DNA of 64,000 bases from a virus. Below, in pieces: positions 3,314-53,024 of the stretch; the first letter of the stretch is position 1; each line of letters opens with the position of its first letter. The translations under genes were made by a program, and so were the position numbers. The stretch is taken from positions 1 through 64,000 of IMG/VR virus record IMGVR_UViG_3300027743_000002. One strand, given 5' to 3'. The notes under the pieces were generated by a model. That model ran no database searches, was not told the DNA's origin, and saw nothing but the letters and a program-made list of their open reading frames with translations.

Positions 3314-4050
3314 TCATCAAGCCACGCGACGGGGCGGAAAGTTGGCAACCCAACGAACCGCCCCCAAGCAACTTCGACCAAGCCGCGTATCAGCAGAAAA
3401 TCGACAAGATCGTCGGTACTAAAGATACGCGGCCCATCATTAAACTCGCGTGGGCACCAGAGGAATTTCGTTGGTGGCCCATTCGGGTAGATGAAGAAGA
3501 ACCCAAGGGTTATGTCTTTCCGATCTTTCACGCTTACACGACCGCTGAAGGGAAGTTGGTAGCTGCGCCTCGGTGGGTACTCTTAGAACGGATTGAGCCT
3601 GCGCAGTATGCCCCGACACCGCAGTTTTGGGAGAGCAAGCGGTATCAGTTTGACGACGGTTCATTGTGGGACTTGACGGGGCCAGTTCCCGACGAGAAGT
3701 ACATTGAATTACGTTGCCACTCGCACCATGACGGAATCTGTTGTGCGTGCATTGGAACGACATGTGAATGTGGAATTGAATATGCTCATTGTTGGGGTAG
3801 GTACGCAGAGCCGGATGAGCATCTGTTAAATTGGATACGGCAAAAGAATTGGGAAGCACAACATGATAATGACGTGCAACCCGACGCTGATGCGCGGTAC
3901 TTTTCGGCTCCGCAAAGTCAGGCTGATTACAAGTCGGAGATTGTAAATCGGCAGGAGCAGCAGAAAGAAGATCGGCGCAAGTACAACGATTACATGTTAG
4001 ACCATTGGGAACGTAAACCTGTTTCGACCGTAGGCCCAACTAGGGCATAA
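3310..4050 (+). CDS. Hypothetical protein with Cys/His cluster
   Basis: ATGA overlap with previous gene; CHSHHDGICCACIGTTCECG. Confidence 0.7.
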   Translation: MIIKPRDGAESWQPNEPPPSNFDQAAYQQKIDKIVGTKDTRPIIKLAWAPEEFRWWPIRVDEEEPKGYVFPIFHAYTTAEGKLVAAPRWVLLERIEPAQYAPTPQFWESKRYQFDDGSLWDLTGPVPDEKYIELRCHSHHDGICCACIGTTCECGIEYAHCWGRYAEPDEHLLNWIRQKNWEAQHDNDVQPDADARYFSAPQSQADYKSEIVNRQEQQKEDRRKYNDYMLDHWERKPVSTVGPTRA

Positions 4051-6041: not shown

Positions 6042-6317
6042 ATGCAGACCTCACCGCTAAAAAACGGCGATAAACTTCCCGATCATCCTAGCGACACCAC
6101 CGCTTTACAAATAACCAAGTACGGACGAGTTTTTGACGCAACCGATGGGCTAGAGTTACTGCCTAATCTCCACCGAACTGAGATCGGAATGTTACGGGGT
6201 GGAGAAAGAGGCGGTCTATCTCATTTGTACAGATTTCACATCGAATCCGGCCACATTTTTCACACACGAGCGGCGGCTGTAGTTGAGGTAGAATGTGAAA
6301 GTATTGACTCTGAATAG
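6042..6317 (+). CDS. Hypothetical protein; its 3' end is mirrored by pentamer array 2
   Basis: 91 aa; ATG directly after the upstream TAA. Confidence 0.7.
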   Translation: MQTSPLKNGDKLPDHPSDTTALQITKYGRVFDATDGLELLPNLHRTEIGMLRGGERGGLSHLYRFHIESGHIFHTRAAAVVEVECESIDSE

Positions 6318-6332
6318 CGAATAGAGTAGATT
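6304..6332 (+). promoter_or_regulatory. Promoter of the RAMP/pentamer cassette
   Basis: TTGACT-17 nt-TAGATT; predicted +1 near 6339 coincides with the first base of the leader stem. Confidence 0.65.
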
Positions 6333-6338
6333 GCTCCC

Positions 6339-6468
6339 GCCGACCAAGATTGAATGGCGTGGGCTTTGTTTTTAGCCTTAACAGATTCCAGATACTTAGA
6401 CCAAAATCGTCCGCGCTTGTCTTGGTCGGCAGGCTCTAACGAAGGTCGGGTGTCTGGAATTTGTTTTT
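6339..6468 (+). ncRNA. Structured leader RNA with interleaved helices
   Basis: 6339-6349 pairs perfectly with 6420-6430; 6380-6395 pairs with 6450-6465 (2 G-U), followed by a T run. Confidence 0.55.
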
Positions 6469-6471
6469 CAG

Positions 6472-6536
6472 GGAGTGGCGTGGTGCGCTGGTTTAGGGTT
6501 GGCATAGGTCAGTTCCGGCTTGGTATGGTGCGCTAT
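6472..6536 (+). repeat. Pentamer array 1 (G[G]Y-NN); putative guide RNA
   Basis: 13 units: gga-gt ggc-gt ggt-gc gct-gg ttt-ag ggt-tg gca-ta ggt-ca gtt-cc ggc-tt ggt-at ggt-gc gct-at. Confidence 0.8.
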
Positions 6537-6556
6537 TCCTCTAAGGAGAATCTGTT

Positions 6557-7192
6557 ATGGCTACAGCAAAAGCAAAACTAGAAGCATTGAGTCCGGTGTC
6601 AAACGATGCCGCAGAAACGATTTCATTTGAGGAACCGTATATCGTGACGGTTCAGATTGAAGGCACTGCGCCGATTCTTTTCCATCGGTGGTCTTGTGAA
6701 GACGTGGAAGCCAAGGCCAACGCAAAGAAGAACTCCAAAGCTAAGAAAACCGACAATGTGGAGTCCTACATCTATCGCAATGAGTTGAATCAAATCTGTT
6801 TGCCAGGTGAGTACGTGCGGCAGACAATTATTCATGCCGCGAAGTTCAAGCAAGACCCGCGTTCACCTCGTAAATCGGCAATGGACTTGTTCAAGGCGTC
6901 GATTGTGGCGTTGACCGAACTCGCACCGTTGAATGGTGGTACAGAAACGTGGGATTACATTGACCAACGACGAGTAGTGATTCAGCGGGCAGCTATCACG
7001 CGAATGCGGCCCGCGTTTGCGAAAGGATGGACAGCAGAGATGGATTTCTCGATTCTCTGTCCTGAGTATGTTGATCCACATTTGTTTAATGAGGTGTTGG
7101 CTCTATCTGGAAAGTTGATCGGCACAGCAGATGGTCGCCCTAGTTATGGACGATTTCAAGTGAACAAGTGCTCTGTAGTTGGGCTTGCTTAG
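6557..7192 (+). CDS. Stand-alone RAMP/Cas7-like RNA-binding protein
   Basis: 211 aa; N-terminal VQIEGTAPILFH strand, LPGEYVRQTI helix, C-terminal G-rich loop GKLIGTADGRPSYGRF typical of RAMP proteins; SD TAAGGAG. Confidence 0.75.
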   Translation: MATAKAKLEALSPVSNDAAETISFEEPYIVTVQIEGTAPILFHRWSCEDVEAKANAKKNSKAKKTDNVESYIYRNELNQICLPGEYVRQTIIHAAKFKQDPRSPRKSAMDLFKASIVALTELAPLNGGTETWDYIDQRRVVIQRAAITRMRPAFAKGWTAEMDFSILCPEYVDPHLFNEVLALSGKLIGTADGRPSYGRFQVNKCSVVGLA

Positions 7193-7318
7193 GTTATGGC
7201 TAATTCAGCCACGGTCGGCTAGGTATCGTTGTGTTGTGGTATGCCGAGCAGTGGTGAGGGTGGCTGCGGAATGTTCCGCTTTGGTCTTGCAACGGTGAGG
7301 CGTGGCCTTATAAGGAGA
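7193..7318 (+). repeat. Pentamer array 2 (G[G]Y-NN); putative guide RNA
   Basis: G at the first position in 18 of 19 units 7193-7287; 1-nt register slip at 7288; 6 more units ending in palindrome CCTTATAAGG. Confidence 0.85.
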
Positions 7319-7383
7319 GTTGCGGTGAGGTATGGAACGGCGAGCTGAGCATGGTCGTGTTGGGGTTCGGTTTGGTCAGGTAA
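7319..7383 (+). repeat. Pentamer array 3 (G[G]Y-NN); putative guide RNA
   Basis: 13 of 13 units begin with G: gtt-gc ggt-ga ggt-at gga-ac ggc-ga gct-ga gca-tg gtc-gt gtt-gg ggt-tc ggt-tt ggt-ca ggt-aa. Confidence 0.85.
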
Positions 7384-7422
7384 GAAAGAGCTAAGATAAG
7401 ATTCATTATCTTGGCTCTTTCT
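7383..7422 (+). terminator. 17-bp hairpin closing the cassette
   Basis: agaaagagctaagataa-gattca-ttatcttggctctttct, one U-G pair. Confidence 0.7.
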
Positions 7423-7439
7423 ATTGTATACTCAACGAA

Positions 7440-9488
7440 ATGCCTAAGTTGACGAGGGAAGAAACTCAAACACTCTTTAGAGCTTTAGAGATTTCTTCTT
7501 TGTCCGAGATCGATGATGATTGGGTAGGCCAGTTTCTCTCCAAACTCAACGACCCTGTAAAGAAAGCCGCGTGGAATCAACTTCTCGGAATCATCGAAGA
7601 ATTCCGTCCTGAAGAATACAAACGCCTCAACAACTTCGCCAAGAACAACAAGGGAATGCTGCTGGAGTTCCAAGGATGGGAACGCTGGTTAAAGACTCTG
7701 GGAGCGCAGACCTTTACCCGCGACTTTGCCCCGATTCAAAAGAGATTTTGGGATTGGAATTGGCGAGCGTTGCTGAAGATTCGCAAGAACGTCCCGCTTG
7801 ATCCGAAAGAGATGGTTGGCTTTTTACCATGGTCCAGGGAGACGGGGAAAAGTTCAGTAACCGAGTGGGCGTGCATTGCCGAAGGAGCCTTGCTCAGAGG
7901 CGGGTATGTCATCTTCTACTCAGGCAAGCAATCGCAAGCAGAGGAACACGTTACTTCAATCCGTGACCGCATTGAATCTGAGCATGTCAGTGACCTTTAT
8001 CCGTGGTTAGGGAAGCCCAAGGTCGGCGCACACGGAAACAAGTTTGGATGGGGTAAAGAGTTCCTGATGACGAGTGGTGGTTGGGCCATCCGACCTGTTG
8101 GAGCTGATGTAGCGATACGCGGCGGTAAGACACTCAACCTTAGACCAACGCTGATCGTGGTAGACGACCTTGATGAACTCGGTGAGTCACCCGTTGTGGT
8201 CGAACACAAGGAACAGATTCTCACTCGCTCAATTCTGCCGATGGGGAATGACAAAACTCGTGTACTTGTCCCGCAGAATCCCATTCACGCGAACTCAGTA
8301 GTCAATCGAATGCTGACGGGCGTGTCACTTGCGTTGGCGATTAGAACCGTGTTCGGGGAGTTGAATGATGACGGTTCAATGTCCACTCGTCCTGTACCTG
8401 CGGTGCGCGACTTTGCTTACGAAGTCCGCCAAACCGATGAAGGCCCATTCTCTAAAATCACTCAAGGCGAAACGAACTGGCCTGGGATTACGATAGAAGG
8501 TTGGGAGCGAACTCTTAATCGTGTTGGGCCACTAGCATTCGAGAGCGAATACCAACACCGACTCGACGTAATGTTAGAGGAAAGGGTTCTTCCCGAATAC
8601 GATGACAGGGTGCTACGGACGAATCTGATTTCGTGGAGTCAATATGAAACAATGTATGGGACTCGTCGGATTCCGAGTGATTGGATTTGTGATGTTGGTT
8701 GCGATATTGGATATTCGGTAGGCCATCGAACTGCGTTTACATTTCTCACGCGAGCACCGCACGGCGCACCTCTAGCGGGAAGTATTTTTCGTTATCGAGG
8801 ATGTGTATTCACGGCTACCACGATTGGAGAAATGAGCACATCAGTAAAAGCCCGTCTATGGCCTGATGAAAACCTTCAGCGGGAATGGTTGAGTCACGAG
8901 AAGTTAGGCGAGCGGCTAGTGCTTAATCGAGAGCATGGTTGGCACTTCCAGACGTGCGAAAGTGCAAAAACCGCAGGAATTCCGCAATGGAGGCACTTTC
9001 TCAAGTCTGATAAGACGCAGCCGCATCCATTTCACCGAGATGAAAAAAGTGTAGATGGCTTGTGGAAGATTGGTCGTCCAGCATGGTTTGATGTTGTGGA
9101 CGATGACCAGTTCTTTCAACCCTATGATGACCGTGGATTAAAGGTGCATCGTGACCAAGCATTTAATTGGCGACTAAAGCCTGAGAAGCTGACGGAAAGC
9201 GGGCTGACTATTCAGCAGCCTATGAAGGCAGACGAAGATTCCTGCGACGCTACGAGAATGTGTACAGCCGCTCCAAATTTTGGGCCAACTATGCGAGGAA
9301 TGACCCAATATGAAAAGGTGCAAGCCATTATCCCGCAGGGCTATCATGTTAATGAGTTAGTCAAACGTGTTGACTTAGACCCTAACCAACAACACATGAC
9401 TGGTCAGATGGCAACCTTTTTAGCGAGAAAAACATTAGGCTTGGATAAGCCTAAATTAGTTGATCCATGGGGCCAGCCGATAAGGTAA
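7440..9488 (+). CDS. terL: Terminase large subunit
   Basis: 682 aa; Walker A SRETGKS, Walker B IVVDDLD, FESEYQH, RNase H-like GCDIG and C-terminal DEDSCDA. Confidence 0.9.
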   Translation: MPKLTREETQTLFRALEISSLSEIDDDWVGQFLSKLNDPVKKAAWNQLLGIIEEFRPEEYKRLNNFAKNNKGMLLEFQGWERWLKTLGAQTFTRDFAPIQKRFWDWNWRALLKIRKNVPLDPKEMVGFLPWSRETGKSSVTEWACIAEGALLRGGYVIFYSGKQSQAEEHVTSIRDRIESEHVSDLYPWLGKPKVGAHGNKFGWGKEFLMTSGGWAIRPVGADVAIRGGKTLNLRPTLIVVDDLDELGESPVVVEHKEQILTRSILPMGNDKTRVLVPQNPIHANSVVNRMLTGVSLALAIRTVFGELNDDGSMSTRPVPAVRDFAYEVRQTDEGPFSKITQGETNWPGITIEGWERTLNRVGPLAFESEYQHRLDVMLEERVLPEYDDRVLRTNLISWSQYETMYGTRRIPSDWICDVGCDIGYSVGHRTAFTFLTRAPHGAPLAGSIFRYRGCVFTATTIGEMSTSVKARLWPDENLQREWLSHEKLGERLVLNREHGWHFQTCESAKTAGIPQWRHFLKSDKTQPHPFHRDEKSVDGLWKIGRPAWFDVVDDDQFFQPYDDRGLKVHRDQAFNWRLKPEKLTESGLTIQQPMKADEDSCDATRMCTAAPNFGPTMRGMTQYEKVQAIIPQGYHVNELVKRVDLDPNQQHMTGQMATFLARKTLGLDKPKLVDPWGQPIR

Positions 9489-9560
9489 AATAGAACGGCT
9501 CAACCAAAGGCGTGAACCTTTGAGTGAGCCTTGCCAACACTTCTTGATGGAGACAAGATC

Positions 9561-10226
9561 ATGCCAGCTAAATCTAAAATAACTCTTGGCGATCAATTTG
9601 GAAAGCTCACTGTGAGTATCTTTCTTGGTATTCGTAATAAAGAGCGATGGTGGGAGTGCATTTGCGAGTGCGGTAAAACCGTTGAGCGAACTACGGGACA
9701 GTTAAGACGACGACGTTCTTGTGGTTGCTTGCGTGGAAAGAACGGTATTAAGCATGGAATGTCTGAGAGTGATGAGTTTGTTATTTGGCACACAATGAAG
9801 GCACGTTGTTATAACCCGAAAGCCACTGGATATGAAAGATACGGAGGAGCGGGAATATCAATGTCTGATGAATGGCGCGATGATTTTATGGCATTTTATA
9901 ATCATATAGGGCCACGTCCATCAAAAAGACATTCCGTAGATCGTTGGCCGAATCCAAGTGGCAATTATGAACCGAATAATGTTCGGTGGGCCACCAAAGA
10001 GGAACAGGGACGTAATAAAAGAACGAATGTAATTTTCACTCTGAACGGGGAGTCTAAGACTTGTATTGAGTGGAGTGAGATTCTTGGAATTAAGCCAATG
10101 ACTTTGCAAGGGCGTAAATACCATGGGTGGTCGGATGAAGAAATACTCACGACACCGACACTTAAACAAGGAAGGAGAAAAAACAGTGTTGGAAGATATG
10201 AAATCCCTGACGGAAGCGGTAAATAG
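9561..10226 (+). CDS. HNH-type homing endonuclease
   Basis: CICECG...SCGC...YGGAGI...SVDRWPNPSGNYEPNNVRWAT; SD GGAG before ATG 9561. Confidence 0.8.
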   Translation: MPAKSKITLGDQFGKLTVSIFLGIRNKERWWECICECGKTVERTTGQLRRRRSCGCLRGKNGIKHGMSESDEFVIWHTMKARCYNPKATGYERYGGAGISMSDEWRDDFMAFYNHIGPRPSKRHSVDRWPNPSGNYEPNNVRWATKEEQGRNKRTNVIFTLNGESKTCIEWSEILGIKPMTLQGRKYHGWSDEEILTTPTLKQGRRKNSVGRYEIPDGSGK

Positions 10227-10746
10227 ATTTGCGTTTGATTGGTGCGGGCATCGCTCAACCTGTGTGTTGTCATCCGCAGCCCTTGTCCACGTCTTACGGG
10301 AATTGGGCTATGACGCGATGCCGTTGCGGGTTCGTTGCTCAGTACATTCTTCTGAGCCTAGACAAACAGGAACGGTGCTTGGGTCAGACGGAGATGGGTG
10401 CCGACAAGCCGCTGCGGGGCCGGATATGTGGCATGGACATCTAGTAGTAATTGCGGAGAACCGATTCTTGCTTGATCCGTCCATTGACCAAGTGAGTGAA
10501 GGAGAAGAATGTAATCGCTGGATGAACGTGCCGCCATTAGCAGTGGAAGTGAGTGAACGATTTATCCGTGGTGAAGAAGGGTTTTCATTTCAACATGGAA
10601 ATGCCAATCTTTACTATAACGCACGACGACGACAAGTAGGATTTCTATCTGCGCCTGACTGGAAACGTCCGTCACATTGGATGCCCGTGGCGCGTCAAGT
10701 GTTAAACGAGACTAAAATCGTTGCTAAACAGTCGCATGTGACATAA
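10198..10746 (+). CDS. Transglutaminase/papain-fold protein with putative Cys-His-Asp triad
   Basis: TCVLSSAAL..LRELG, WHGHLVV, LLDPSIDQ; ATG 10198 preferred over 10123. Confidence 0.5.
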   Translation: MKSLTEAVNRFAFDWCGHRSTCVLSSAALVHVLRELGYDAMPLRVRCSVHSSEPRQTGTVLGSDGDGCRQAAAGPDMWHGHLVVIAENRFLLDPSIDQVSEGEECNRWMNVPPLAVEVSERFIRGEEGFSFQHGNANLYYNARRRQVGFLSAPDWKRPSHWMPVARQVLNETKIVAKQSHVT

Positions 10747-10757
10747 ACTGCGCGGTG

Positions 10758-10931
10758 ATGCCTTACCGGAGCGCAAGTCAAAGAAGATTTTTTCATTCTA
10801 GTGGAGCGGCAAAAGCAGGGATTACGCTCAAACAAGTGAAAGAATTTGACGCGGCAAGTAAGGACATGAAATTACCAGAAAAGAAGATTAAAAAGCGTGG
10901 CTTGAAGCACGTAAAAATTGGGGGAAAATAA
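10758..10931 (+). CDS. Small basic phage protein (57 aa, not in ORF track)
   Basis: MPYRSASQRRFFH...LPEKKIKKRGLKHVKIGGK; fills the operon gap; MPxxSxxQxR start common in phage small proteins. Confidence 0.65.
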   Translation: MPYRSASQRRFFHSSGAAKAGITLKQVKEFDAASKDMKLPEKKIKKRGLKHVKIGGK

Positions 10932-52883: not shown

Positions 52884-53024
52884 TTATCTTTCCTTCTCTG
52901 AAAGATTGTTTCAATGTTCACAGATAGTATAACACGGCTGTCAATACCCCTTGCGCTGAAAGTGGCTGAATTAAGAGTGGAAAGTGTAAATTCATTGAGC
53001 AAAGTTGCATTGAAAATAAATTTC

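What the first reader, a model, noticed from the sequence alone, without database searches (positions are those of the whole stretch)
7193..7272. Array 2 dinucleotides spell codon positions 1+2 of a diverged copy of the upstream gene (wobble-skipping code)
Seen: the NN string at ta ca ac cg ag tc gt gt at ga gt ga tg gc at aligns to positions 1+2 of codons 6255-6302 (at tt ca ac cg gc gc gc gt gt ga gt ga tg ga ag). That is 24/32 nt and 9/16 exact dinucleotides. A rough binomial at p=0.25 gives about 4e-9 per position, with the window chosen by eye. One consistent decoding is IYHTRSSVVIEVECAI versus the phage's own IFHTRAAAVVEVECES, so differences look like homolog substitutions (F/Y, A/S, V/I). 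Inference: the guide targets this gene in a related phage and skips every third base, so synonymous escape is useless, while the carrier's allele is protected by divergence. The guide is mRNA-sense, which points to a DNA target.
Basis: partly seen in the sequence, partly recalled or inferred. Interest (0 to 1): 0.96.

Follow-up and report, generated by a model that had tools for sequence, protein, structure and literature searches.

The report
Phage VIPR guide aimed at sibling phages
The 5-base repeat array is a guide RNA of a VIPR system, a CRISPR-like, phage-borne DNA silencer first described in 2026 preprints.

Summary
Positions 4-5 of the 16 pentamers at 7193-7272 match codon positions 1+2 at 6255-6302 in 24 of 32 bases. 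This is the best site in the whole 74.7-kb phage genome (next best 19-20; shuffle P about 0.0005-0.0012).

The element is a VIPR system:
- The 211-aa gene at 6557-7192 is a Vipr homologue, a Cas7-like RAMP. It matches PDB 36pp "SUSP1 Vipr" at E 1.7e-12.
- G-periodic pentamer arrays flank this gene here and in about 25 of 30 relatives.
- Only the published "1-nt skip" rule gives outlier matches.

The prediction that a relative matches better than self is met twice:
- Array 2 matches the orf91 homologue of metagenome contig L038 at 26/32, and 26/28 over the first 14 units. Self scores 24/32.
- The next guide (7319-7378) matches the terL 5' end of a VIPR-less sibling phage (G1/L032) at 21/24, with 9 consecutive exact units. 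Self scores 18/24.

Both targets are in codon phase 0 and lie in the two genes that flank the cassette's insertion point.

The wobble-skipping code, dsDNA targeting and self-avoidance by divergence are all published (bioRxiv 10.64898/2026.04.26.720920, .720927, 2026.10.15.759431). This scan has also found VIPR loci on other DNA before. Verdict: a new member of a known kind, with two well-supported natural targets.

The parts
6042..6317 (+). orf91, a 91-aa gene of unknown function that sits directly upstream of terL in VIPR-less relatives. Codons 6255-6302 are the self near-match (24/32) of guide 2.
6304..6332 (+). Sigma-70-like promoter match (TTGACT-17-TAGATT) at the left edge of the cassette. 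This is a consensus match only.
6472..6536 (+). Array 1: 13 G-phased pentamers in the vipr leader, a candidate vrRNA1. No target was found. In another metagenome this stretch is replaced by 81 other letters between near-identical flanks.
6557..7192 (+). vipr: a 211-aa RAMP/Cas7-like protein and homologue of SUSP1 Vipr. It carries a conserved C-terminal G-loop motif (G-x-x-D-x-R-P-x-x-G-R-F).
7193..7272 (+). Array 2, the finding: 16 pentamers of the form G-[G/C/T]-[mostly Y]-N-N. The first 14 (7193-7262) behave as the guide. Units 15-17 overlap a weak hairpin at 7266-7279.
7273..7318 (+). Inter-guide stretch: 3 more in-phase units, a +1 phase slip near 7288, 4 units in the new phase, and the palindrome CCTTATAAGG followed by AGA. 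It may be a tail or a processing region; the boundaries are not established.
7319..7378 (+). Array 3 guide: 12 pentamers. It matches the terL 5' codons of VIPR-less phage G1 at 21/24 (9 exact units in a row) and its own terL at 18/24.
7383..7422 (+). Strong terminal hairpin of 17 bp (dG -24.4 kcal/mol, z -6.7). It marks the end of the cassette transcript or the tail of the last vrRNA.
7440..9488 (+). terL (terminase large subunit). Codons 7503-7538 are the self near-match of guide 3.

Best explanation
The window comes from a complete 74.7-kb phage genome (IMG/VR record with terminal repeats). This phage carries a minimal VIPR cassette, with outer bounds 6231-7439 (the stretch that does not align to sibling phage G1, including the last 29 codons of orf91), inserted between orf91 and terL. 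The cassette holds one vipr gene and pentamer arrays on both sides of it.

By analogy with the characterised SUSP1 system, the arrays are transcribed into vrRNAs. One Vipr protomer binds each pentamer, hides the G-N-Y scaffold and presents the two variable bases. The filament then pairs with double-stranded DNA, reading two bases and skipping one, which forms a gapped R-loop that blocks transcription.

Array 2 (7193-7262/7272) encodes a guide against the C-terminal codons of orf91 as they occur in rival sibling phages. Array 3 (7319-7378) encodes a guide against the 5' codons of the rivals' terL. The skipped base falls on the wobble position, so synonymous changes do not help the target escape. 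The carrier's own alleles differ at amino-acid-determining positions and match at 75%, below the 80% the preprints use to call targets.

Shown here: the homology of the protein, the array anatomy and its conservation, the matches and their statistics, and the absence of the cassette from the sibling phage. Inferred from the literature: RNA expression, filament formation, DNA binding and silencing.
For: - Vipr homology: the profile of 23 homologues hits PDB 36pp 'SUSP1 Vipr protein' at E 1.7e-12, and the single sequence hits at 8e-6 with an aligned G-loop. The AF2 model (pLDDT 75) gives Csm3/Cas7 chains of type III and type VII CRISPR as top folds, E about 2e-6.
- Arrays: period-5 G tracts flank the vipr homologue in about 25 of 30 IMG/VR relatives. 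In the called arrays of these loci, unit position 1 is G in 93%. In an alignment with relatives whose Vipr is 78-89% identical, the invariant array columns are mostly the periodic G; the rest varies.
- Code: only the 1-nt skip gives outliers. Both targets are in codon phase 0.
- Targets: guide 2 against L038 scores 26/32 and 26/28, with 0/2000 shuffles reaching this. Guide 3 against the whole G1 genome scores 21/24 (next best 17), 0/2000. Self scores are 24/32 (P<=0.0005) and 18/24 (P=0.06).
- The guide 3 units that differ between self and G1 (codons for S/A and D/T) agree with G1.
- A second sample holds the same terL allele with different wobble bases that still match guide units 1-4 (loose end before 7515).
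- The peptide implied by guide 2 (IYHTRSSVVIEVEC) fits the natural variation of the orf91 family.
- G1 is syntenic at 85-98% nt identity, has 70 bp where G0 has 6231-7439, and has no vipr and no arrays.
- Mechanism and the >=80% target / <80% self criteria come from the preprints.
Against: - No perfect target was found. The best match for guide 2 is 81% over 16 units, just at the published threshold.
- An exact 10-unit scan of IMG/VR found nothing.
- The scaffold is relaxed (position 2 is G in only about 45% of units), and the protein is only distantly related to SUSP1 Vipr (single-sequence E 8e-6), so the SUSP1 biochemistry is an extrapolation.
- vrRNA ends, tails and expression are unknown. 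The small hairpins proposed as tails fold no better than shuffles.
- The mismatch tolerance of VIPR is not reported in the preprint whose text I searched for it, so it is not shown that a 75% self-match is harmless.
- No vap accessory gene is present.
Confidence: 0.87

Rival explanations
1. Autoregulation. The guides are tuned to the phage's own orf91 and terL. An imperfect 75% match gives partial, timed repression of its own packaging genes, and the better matches in relatives are by-products of homology.
For: Both guides have their best own-genome match in the two genes next to the cassette. 75% is close to the 80% threshold, and mismatch tolerance is unknown.
Against: Relatives match better than self for both guides, and exactly at the units where the alleles differ. 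The preprints report that natural guides avoid self at >=80% and score lower on self than on rivals. Other loci of the clade show no excess of self-like matches.
Confidence: 0.07
2. Chance match. The 24/32 is a product of many patterns tried by eye on a G-rich, codon-like string.
For: G-rich control registers reach 23/32 elsewhere in the window. The A3 string also finds 23/32 at an unrelated place (52956).
Against: Shuffle P is about 0.0005-0.0012 genome-wide. The hit lies in the adjacent gene. The protein is a Vipr homologue.
Confidence: 0.02
3. The array is a DNA-level signal, for example a pac site or a small-terminase binding array upstream of terL, and not a guide RNA.
For: It lies directly upstream of terL. 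A period of 5 is half a helical turn.
Against: In relatives the arrays travel with the vipr gene, not with terL: among the fetched loci terL is found only in L002 and L032 (and the window's own L001), while about 25 loci have arrays. The closest sibling phage has neither array nor vipr yet keeps orf91 and terL. This model does not explain the NN-to-codon matches.
Confidence: 0.02

Closest known systems
Type II VIPR of Escherichia phage SUSP1 (Vipr + Vap1 + four vrRNAs; bioRxiv 10.64898/2026.04.26.720920 and .720927; PDB 36pp)
   Same: A small RAMP protein with a G-loop. Pentamer arrays lie upstream and downstream of vipr. Variable positions 4-5 read the target with one base skipped, and the skip base falls on the codon wobble. 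Targets are competing mobile elements, and self scores below 80%.
   Different: The Vipr protein is only distantly related (single-sequence E 8e-6). The scaffold is relaxed to G-[G/C/T]-[mostly Y] instead of strict GGY. There is no vap gene and no recognisable pseudoknot tail. The targets are sibling phages' packaging-module genes rather than a satellite's recombinase.
Staggered vrRNA arrays and alternative NNNNG/YNNNG repeat forms of VIPR (same preprint, fig. S17-S18 legends and methods)
   Same: Long uninterrupted arrays with 1-nt register shifts between successive guides (+1 slip near 7288; many slips in relatives L009, L010 and L022). Only one G is strongly conserved per unit.
   Different: The type (I-VII) could not be assigned: the figures are not held, and the processing sites here are unknown.
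vrRNAs that target relatives' VIPR loci while sparing their own (bioRxiv 10.64898/2026.10.15.759431)
   Same: The guides score higher on rivals than on self. The targets are closely linked to the guide's own locus and are wobble-aligned.
   Different: Here the targets are the non-VIPR genes (orf91, terL) on either side of the empty insertion site in VIPR-null siblings, not vipr or vrRNA sequences.
Class 1 CRISPR Cas7 backbone (Csm3/Cmr4, type VII Cas7)
   Same: Same fold (Foldseek E about 2e-6). One protomer binds per guide repeat unit, and a thumb interrupts pairing periodically.
   Different: The guide period is 5 nt with 2 read bases, against 6 nt with 5 read bases. There is no CRISPR array, no cas1/cas2 and no other cas genes. 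The target is dsDNA read discontinuously.

Membership tests
VIPR system | Vipr protein: a small single-RRM RAMP with G-loop and thumb, homologous to characterised Vipr | tested here: met
   Profile against PDB 36pp SUSP1 Vipr, E 1.7e-12 over residues 27-198. Pairwise alignment shows a shared G-x-x-D-x-R-P-x-x-G-R-F motif. The AF2 model's best folds are Csm3/Cas7.
VIPR system | Tandem pentamer repeats (GGY/NN or a related consensus, at least 4 units) in the intergenic regions flanking vipr, on the same strand | tested here: met
   13 + 19 + 19 G-phased units at 6472-6536 and 7193-7383. Clade-wide composition: position 1 G 93%, position 2 G 45%, position 3 Y 66%. This is a relaxed consensus, which the preprint allows.
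VIPR system | Scaffold conserved and NN hypervariable among close relatives | tested here: met
   In the alignment with relatives whose Vipr is 78-89% identical, the invariant array columns are mostly the periodic G. Array 1 is replaced wholesale between near-identical flanks in another metagenome.
VIPR system | NN string matches natural targets under the 1-nt skip rule (>=80% NN match), mostly wobble-aligned in coding sequence | tested here: met
   Guide 2 against L038: 81% (93% over 14 units). Guide 3 against G1: 87.5%. Both are in phase 0. Skips of 0, 2 and 3 give background. No target was found for array 1.
VIPR system | No self-target at >=80% NN match | tested here: met
   The best self matches are 75% (24/32 and 18/24).
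VIPR system | Vipr-accessory protein (vap) in the locus (typical, not universal) | tested here: not met
   The cassette holds only vipr. No neighbour family is shared across the clade; a subclade of 6 loci has a conserved ORF directly downstream of vipr.
VIPR system | Structured invariant 3' tail after each repeat tract | tested here: inconclusive
   A strong hairpin follows the last array. The candidate small hairpins after arrays 1 and 2 fold no better than shuffles. There is no Rfam match.
VIPR system | vrRNAs expressed, bound by Vipr as a filament, and able to bind and silence dsDNA | not testable with these tools
   No RNA run holds the stretch. The biochemistry is known only for SUSP1 and P. 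fulva systems.

The most novel reading that the evidence does not exclude
The cassette is a linked poison-and-immunity module that drives itself. Both guides with known targets aim at the two genes bordering the cassette's own insertion point, as those genes occur in cassette-less sibling phages. The carrier's mismatched (immune) alleles sit within about 200 bp of the cassette. In mixed infections, only recombinants that inherit the cassette-linked flanks would escape silencing, so the cassette and its flanks would spread. This would resemble the localized marker exclusion caused by homing endonucleases, but without a nuclease. The dip in identity to the sibling phage just left of the cassette (72-79% against 90-98% further out) could be the co-transferred tract.
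Probability: 0.15. Interest if true: 0.65.

Novelty: new member of a known kind. Interest (0 to 1): 0.4.

Why it matters
This case independently reproduces the VIPR 1-nt skip, wobble-aligned code in a distant clade: an environmental phage with a relaxed scaffold and no accessory gene.

It gives two concrete natural guide-target pairs in which the target-bearing phage is a VIPR-null sibling of the carrier. That provides ready-made matched and mismatched alleles (self, L038, G1) for measuring how many NN mismatches VIPR tolerates. I did not find this figure in the preprint I searched for it.

Both targets lie next to the insertion site, which suggests selection for tight linkage between guide and immune allele. 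It does not reveal a new mechanism.

Tried and rejected
Negative or uninformative searches:
- Rfam at gathering threshold over the window, and at E<=1 over 6250-7450: nothing relevant. No tRNAs.
- Pfam and PADLOC: no hit for vipr or its neighbours. PHROGs gave only phrog_4652, of unknown function.
- Exact-pattern scans of IMG/VR with guide 2 units 1-10 and with array 1 units 1-10 and 4-13: 0 hits each. These scans allow no mismatch, so they are weak negatives.
- tblastn of orf91 in GenBank phages: none.
- Protein Atlas for orf91: no usable hit.

Limited sampling:
- Homologue searches for orf91 and terL in IMG/VR and metagenomes gave only L032/G1, L038 and a few terL fragments.
- The orf91 family has only 6 proteins among 5.8 billion.
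From their protein sequences, my hand count gives at most about 25/32 for guide 2.

Tests that did not support a wider claim:
- Guide-against-own-locus test in 27 loci: no general excess of self-like matches outside this window.
- Pooled guide-against-all-loci test: the other hits were low-complexity (L017 to L027) or expected by chance (L003, L022).
- Array 3 against own terL (18/24) is not significant on its own (P 0.06). The 23/32 at 52956 has P 0.018 and no supporting context.
- The early idea of a TRAP-like or pac-site periodic signal was dropped once the Vipr homology appeared.

Sequencing runs:
- No RNA holder is listed for the stretch.
- Four DNA runs laid as contigs gave no cover of 7219-7319.

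No complex prediction was run.

Full report
**What is in the sequence**

From 7193 the + strand runs in 5-base units that begin with G. There are 19 units to 7287, a +1 register slip, then 19 more units to 7383 and a 17-bp hairpin at 7383-7422. A shorter tract of 13 units lies at 6472-6536, in front of the 211-aa gene 6557-7192. The period-5 G signal at 7176-7390 is the strongest period-5 signal of any base in the 64-kb window. Codons 6255-6302 are in frame with ORF 6042-6317 ("orf91"). The counts of 24/32 bases and 9/16 exact dinucleotides are right.

**Is it more than chance?**

I scanned every position of both strands with a two-read, one-skip mask. Position 6255 scores 24 and the next best site scores 19. 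Shuffling the order of the units reaches 24 or more somewhere in the window in 3 of 2500 trials. Against the whole 74.7-kb genome, unit shuffles and base shuffles reach it in 0 and 1 of 2000. Other registers of the pentamer, used as controls, reach at most 23 through G-rich low complexity.

**What the element is**

The window is most of a complete IMG/VR phage genome (74,678 bp with direct terminal repeats). The 211-aa protein has no Pfam or PADLOC hit and only an unnamed PHROG. A profile of 23 homologues hits one solved structure, 36pp "SUSP1 Vipr protein", at E 1.7e-12. The pairwise alignment shows the shared C-terminal glycine-rich loop. An AlphaFold2 model (pLDDT 75) finds Csm3/Cas7 subunits of type III and type VII CRISPR complexes as its best folds.

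Thirty IMG/VR loci encode homologues at 48-89% identity. In about 25 of them, period-5 G tracts lie directly upstream of the gene, downstream of it, or both. In an alignment with the three closest loci, the invariant array columns are mostly the periodic G, and the rest varies.

This is the anatomy of VIPR (Viral Interference Programmable Repeat) systems, described in three 2026 preprints:
- The discovery paper shows vrRNAs of GGY/NN pentamers whose NN bases read dsDNA with one base skipped. The skip falls mostly on the codon wobble. There is no PAM, either strand can be targeted, the natural targets are competing phages and satellites, and no self-hit reaches 80%.
- The cryo-EM paper shows one protomer per pentamer, sequestered GGY and a gapped R-loop triplex.
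- The third paper shows that wobble-skipping blocks synonymous escape, and that guides score lower on self than on rivals.

The scan has also met VIPR loci several times on other DNA.

**Testing the prediction that a relative matches better than self**

Homologue searches found two relatives of orf91 with DNA in hand.

(a) G1 (= L032/L033/L039) is a 72.5-kb IMG/VR phage, 97% complete. It is syntenic with the window's phage at 85-98% nucleotide identity. In G1, orf91 abuts terL: where the window has 6231-7439 (1209 bp), G1 has 70 bp. G1 has no vipr homologue and no G-periodic tract anywhere. It is a VIPR-null sibling.

(b) L038 is a 3.5-kb metagenome contig with an orf91 that is 81% identical, followed directly by a different terL.

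At the homologous orf91 codons, guide 2 scores as follows:

| Target | All 16 units | First 14 units |
|---|---|---|
| Self | 24/32 | 22/28 |
| G1 | 19/32 | not counted |
| L038 | 26/32 | 26/28 |

L038 includes eight exact units in a row and scores 0/4 on units 15-16. No shuffle of 2000 reaches these L038 values. G1 supplies the one unit (TA, Tyr) that neither self nor L038 has.

The peptide implied by the guide (IYHTRSSVVIEVEC) falls within the variation of the six known family members, two of which read IYHTRS.... The exact allele the guide was selected on has not been sampled, but the best sampled allele is not the carrier's own.

The neighbouring guide behaves the same way. Units 7319-7378 match G1's terL codons at 21/24, with nine consecutive exact units. 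This is the best site in the whole G1 genome (next best 17; 0/2000 shuffles). The carrier's own terL scores 18/24. At the two units where the alleles differ (Ser/Ala and Asp/Thr codons), the guide agrees with G1. A contig from a different groundwater metagenome carries the same Ala-Glu-Ile-Thr allele with different third bases that still fit the guide. This shows the skip-base tolerance in natural variants.

Only the one-base skip gives any outlier for either guide; skips of 0, 2 and 3 give background. Both targets are in codon phase 0.

**How it most likely works**

The following steps are inferred from the SUSP1 work and not tested here. The cassette is transcribed: there is a promoter-like match at 6304-6332 and a strong terminal hairpin at 7383-7422. 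The arrays are processed to vrRNAs, and Vipr protomers coat them at one per pentamer. The filaments bind the template strand of orf91 or terL in a co-infecting sibling phage and block transcription of its packaging module. The carrier is spared because its own alleles differ at read positions (75% match).

The two guides cover two different rival lineages. L038-type phages are hit by guide 2 but not guide 3 (15/24). G1-type phages are hit by guide 3 but not guide 2 (19/32).

Not established:
- The vrRNA boundaries. The hairpin at 7266-7279 and the palindrome near 7303-7312 fold no better than shuffles.
- The role of the extra units at 7273-7318.
- The target of array 1: none in G0, G1, L038 or IMG/VR exact scans.
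- The mismatch tolerance that would make 75% safe.

**What differs from the described systems**

The scaffold is relaxed: position 2 is G in about 45% of units and position 3 is a pyrimidine in about 66%. The preprint lists such variants. There is no vap gene in this cassette and none shared across the clade. No pseudoknot tail is recognisable.

Both identified targets lie in the two genes that border the cassette's own insertion point in cassette-less siblings, within about 200 bp of the junctions. For two targets in a 75-kb genome this is unlikely to be accidental: roughly 1e-3 even if the whole of both neighbouring genes is allowed. This is my estimate, not a tool result.

A plausible reason is linkage. 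A guide and the mismatched "immune" allele must be inherited together, as in poison-antidote pairs or homing-endonuclease loci. Identity to G1 falls to 72-79% in the kilobase left of the cassette, against 90-98% further out. This would fit co-transfer of flank and cassette, but it would fit an arms race equally well. This is the most novel reading the data allow. I rate it at about 15%.

**Verdict**

- Observation: confirmed.
- Interpretation: supported.
- Classification: a new member of a known, very recently described kind.
- Added value: two statistically strong natural guide-target pairs against VIPR-null sibling phages, and replication of the skip rule in a distant clade.

Noticed in passing
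window 9221-10778: A stretch of about 1.5 kb just after terL holds an HNH endonuclease gene (9531-10226; phrog_374, E 1e-56) and a 207-aa ORF. It is absent from sibling phage G1, which has 323 bp there. Identity in the adjacent terL 3' part drops to 64-66%, as expected for a homing-endonuclease insertion with a co-conversion tract.
   Followed up: partly
window 6470-6544 (array 1): In one sediment-metagenome contig (run X3), this stretch is replaced by 81 other letters, while the flanks 6329-6469 and 6545-6581 are nearly identical. This looks like a swapped guide in an otherwise identical cassette. In runs X2 and X5, contigs follow vipr to 7186 and then continue with unrelated sequence.
   Followed up: partly
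window 6339-6468: The leader upstream of array 1 contains a long-range inverted repeat (around GCCGACCAAGA ... TCTTGGTCGGC). It is kept in L002 and L003, with what look by eye like paired changes in L003. The stretch is identical in contigs from three other metagenomes. There is no Rfam family beyond a chance hairpin hit.
   Followed up: no
L006, L014, L017, L023, L026, L030 (about 3612-4050 in locus coordinates): A subclade of the vipr relatives shares a conserved ORF of about 115-145 aa starting right after vipr. It is a candidate accessory (vap) gene that the window's cassette lacks.
   Followed up: no
window 52956-53003: The array 3 dinucleotide string (units 4-19 from 7289) matches an in-frame coding stretch at 23/32 (shuffle P 0.018). 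There is no supporting context, so it is probably chance.
   Followed up: partly
L009, L010, L022: Some relatives carry very long downstream arrays (up to about 60 units per register, several hundred bases) with repeated 1-nt register shifts. This resembles the 'staggered arrays' mentioned in the VIPR preprint.
   Followed up: no
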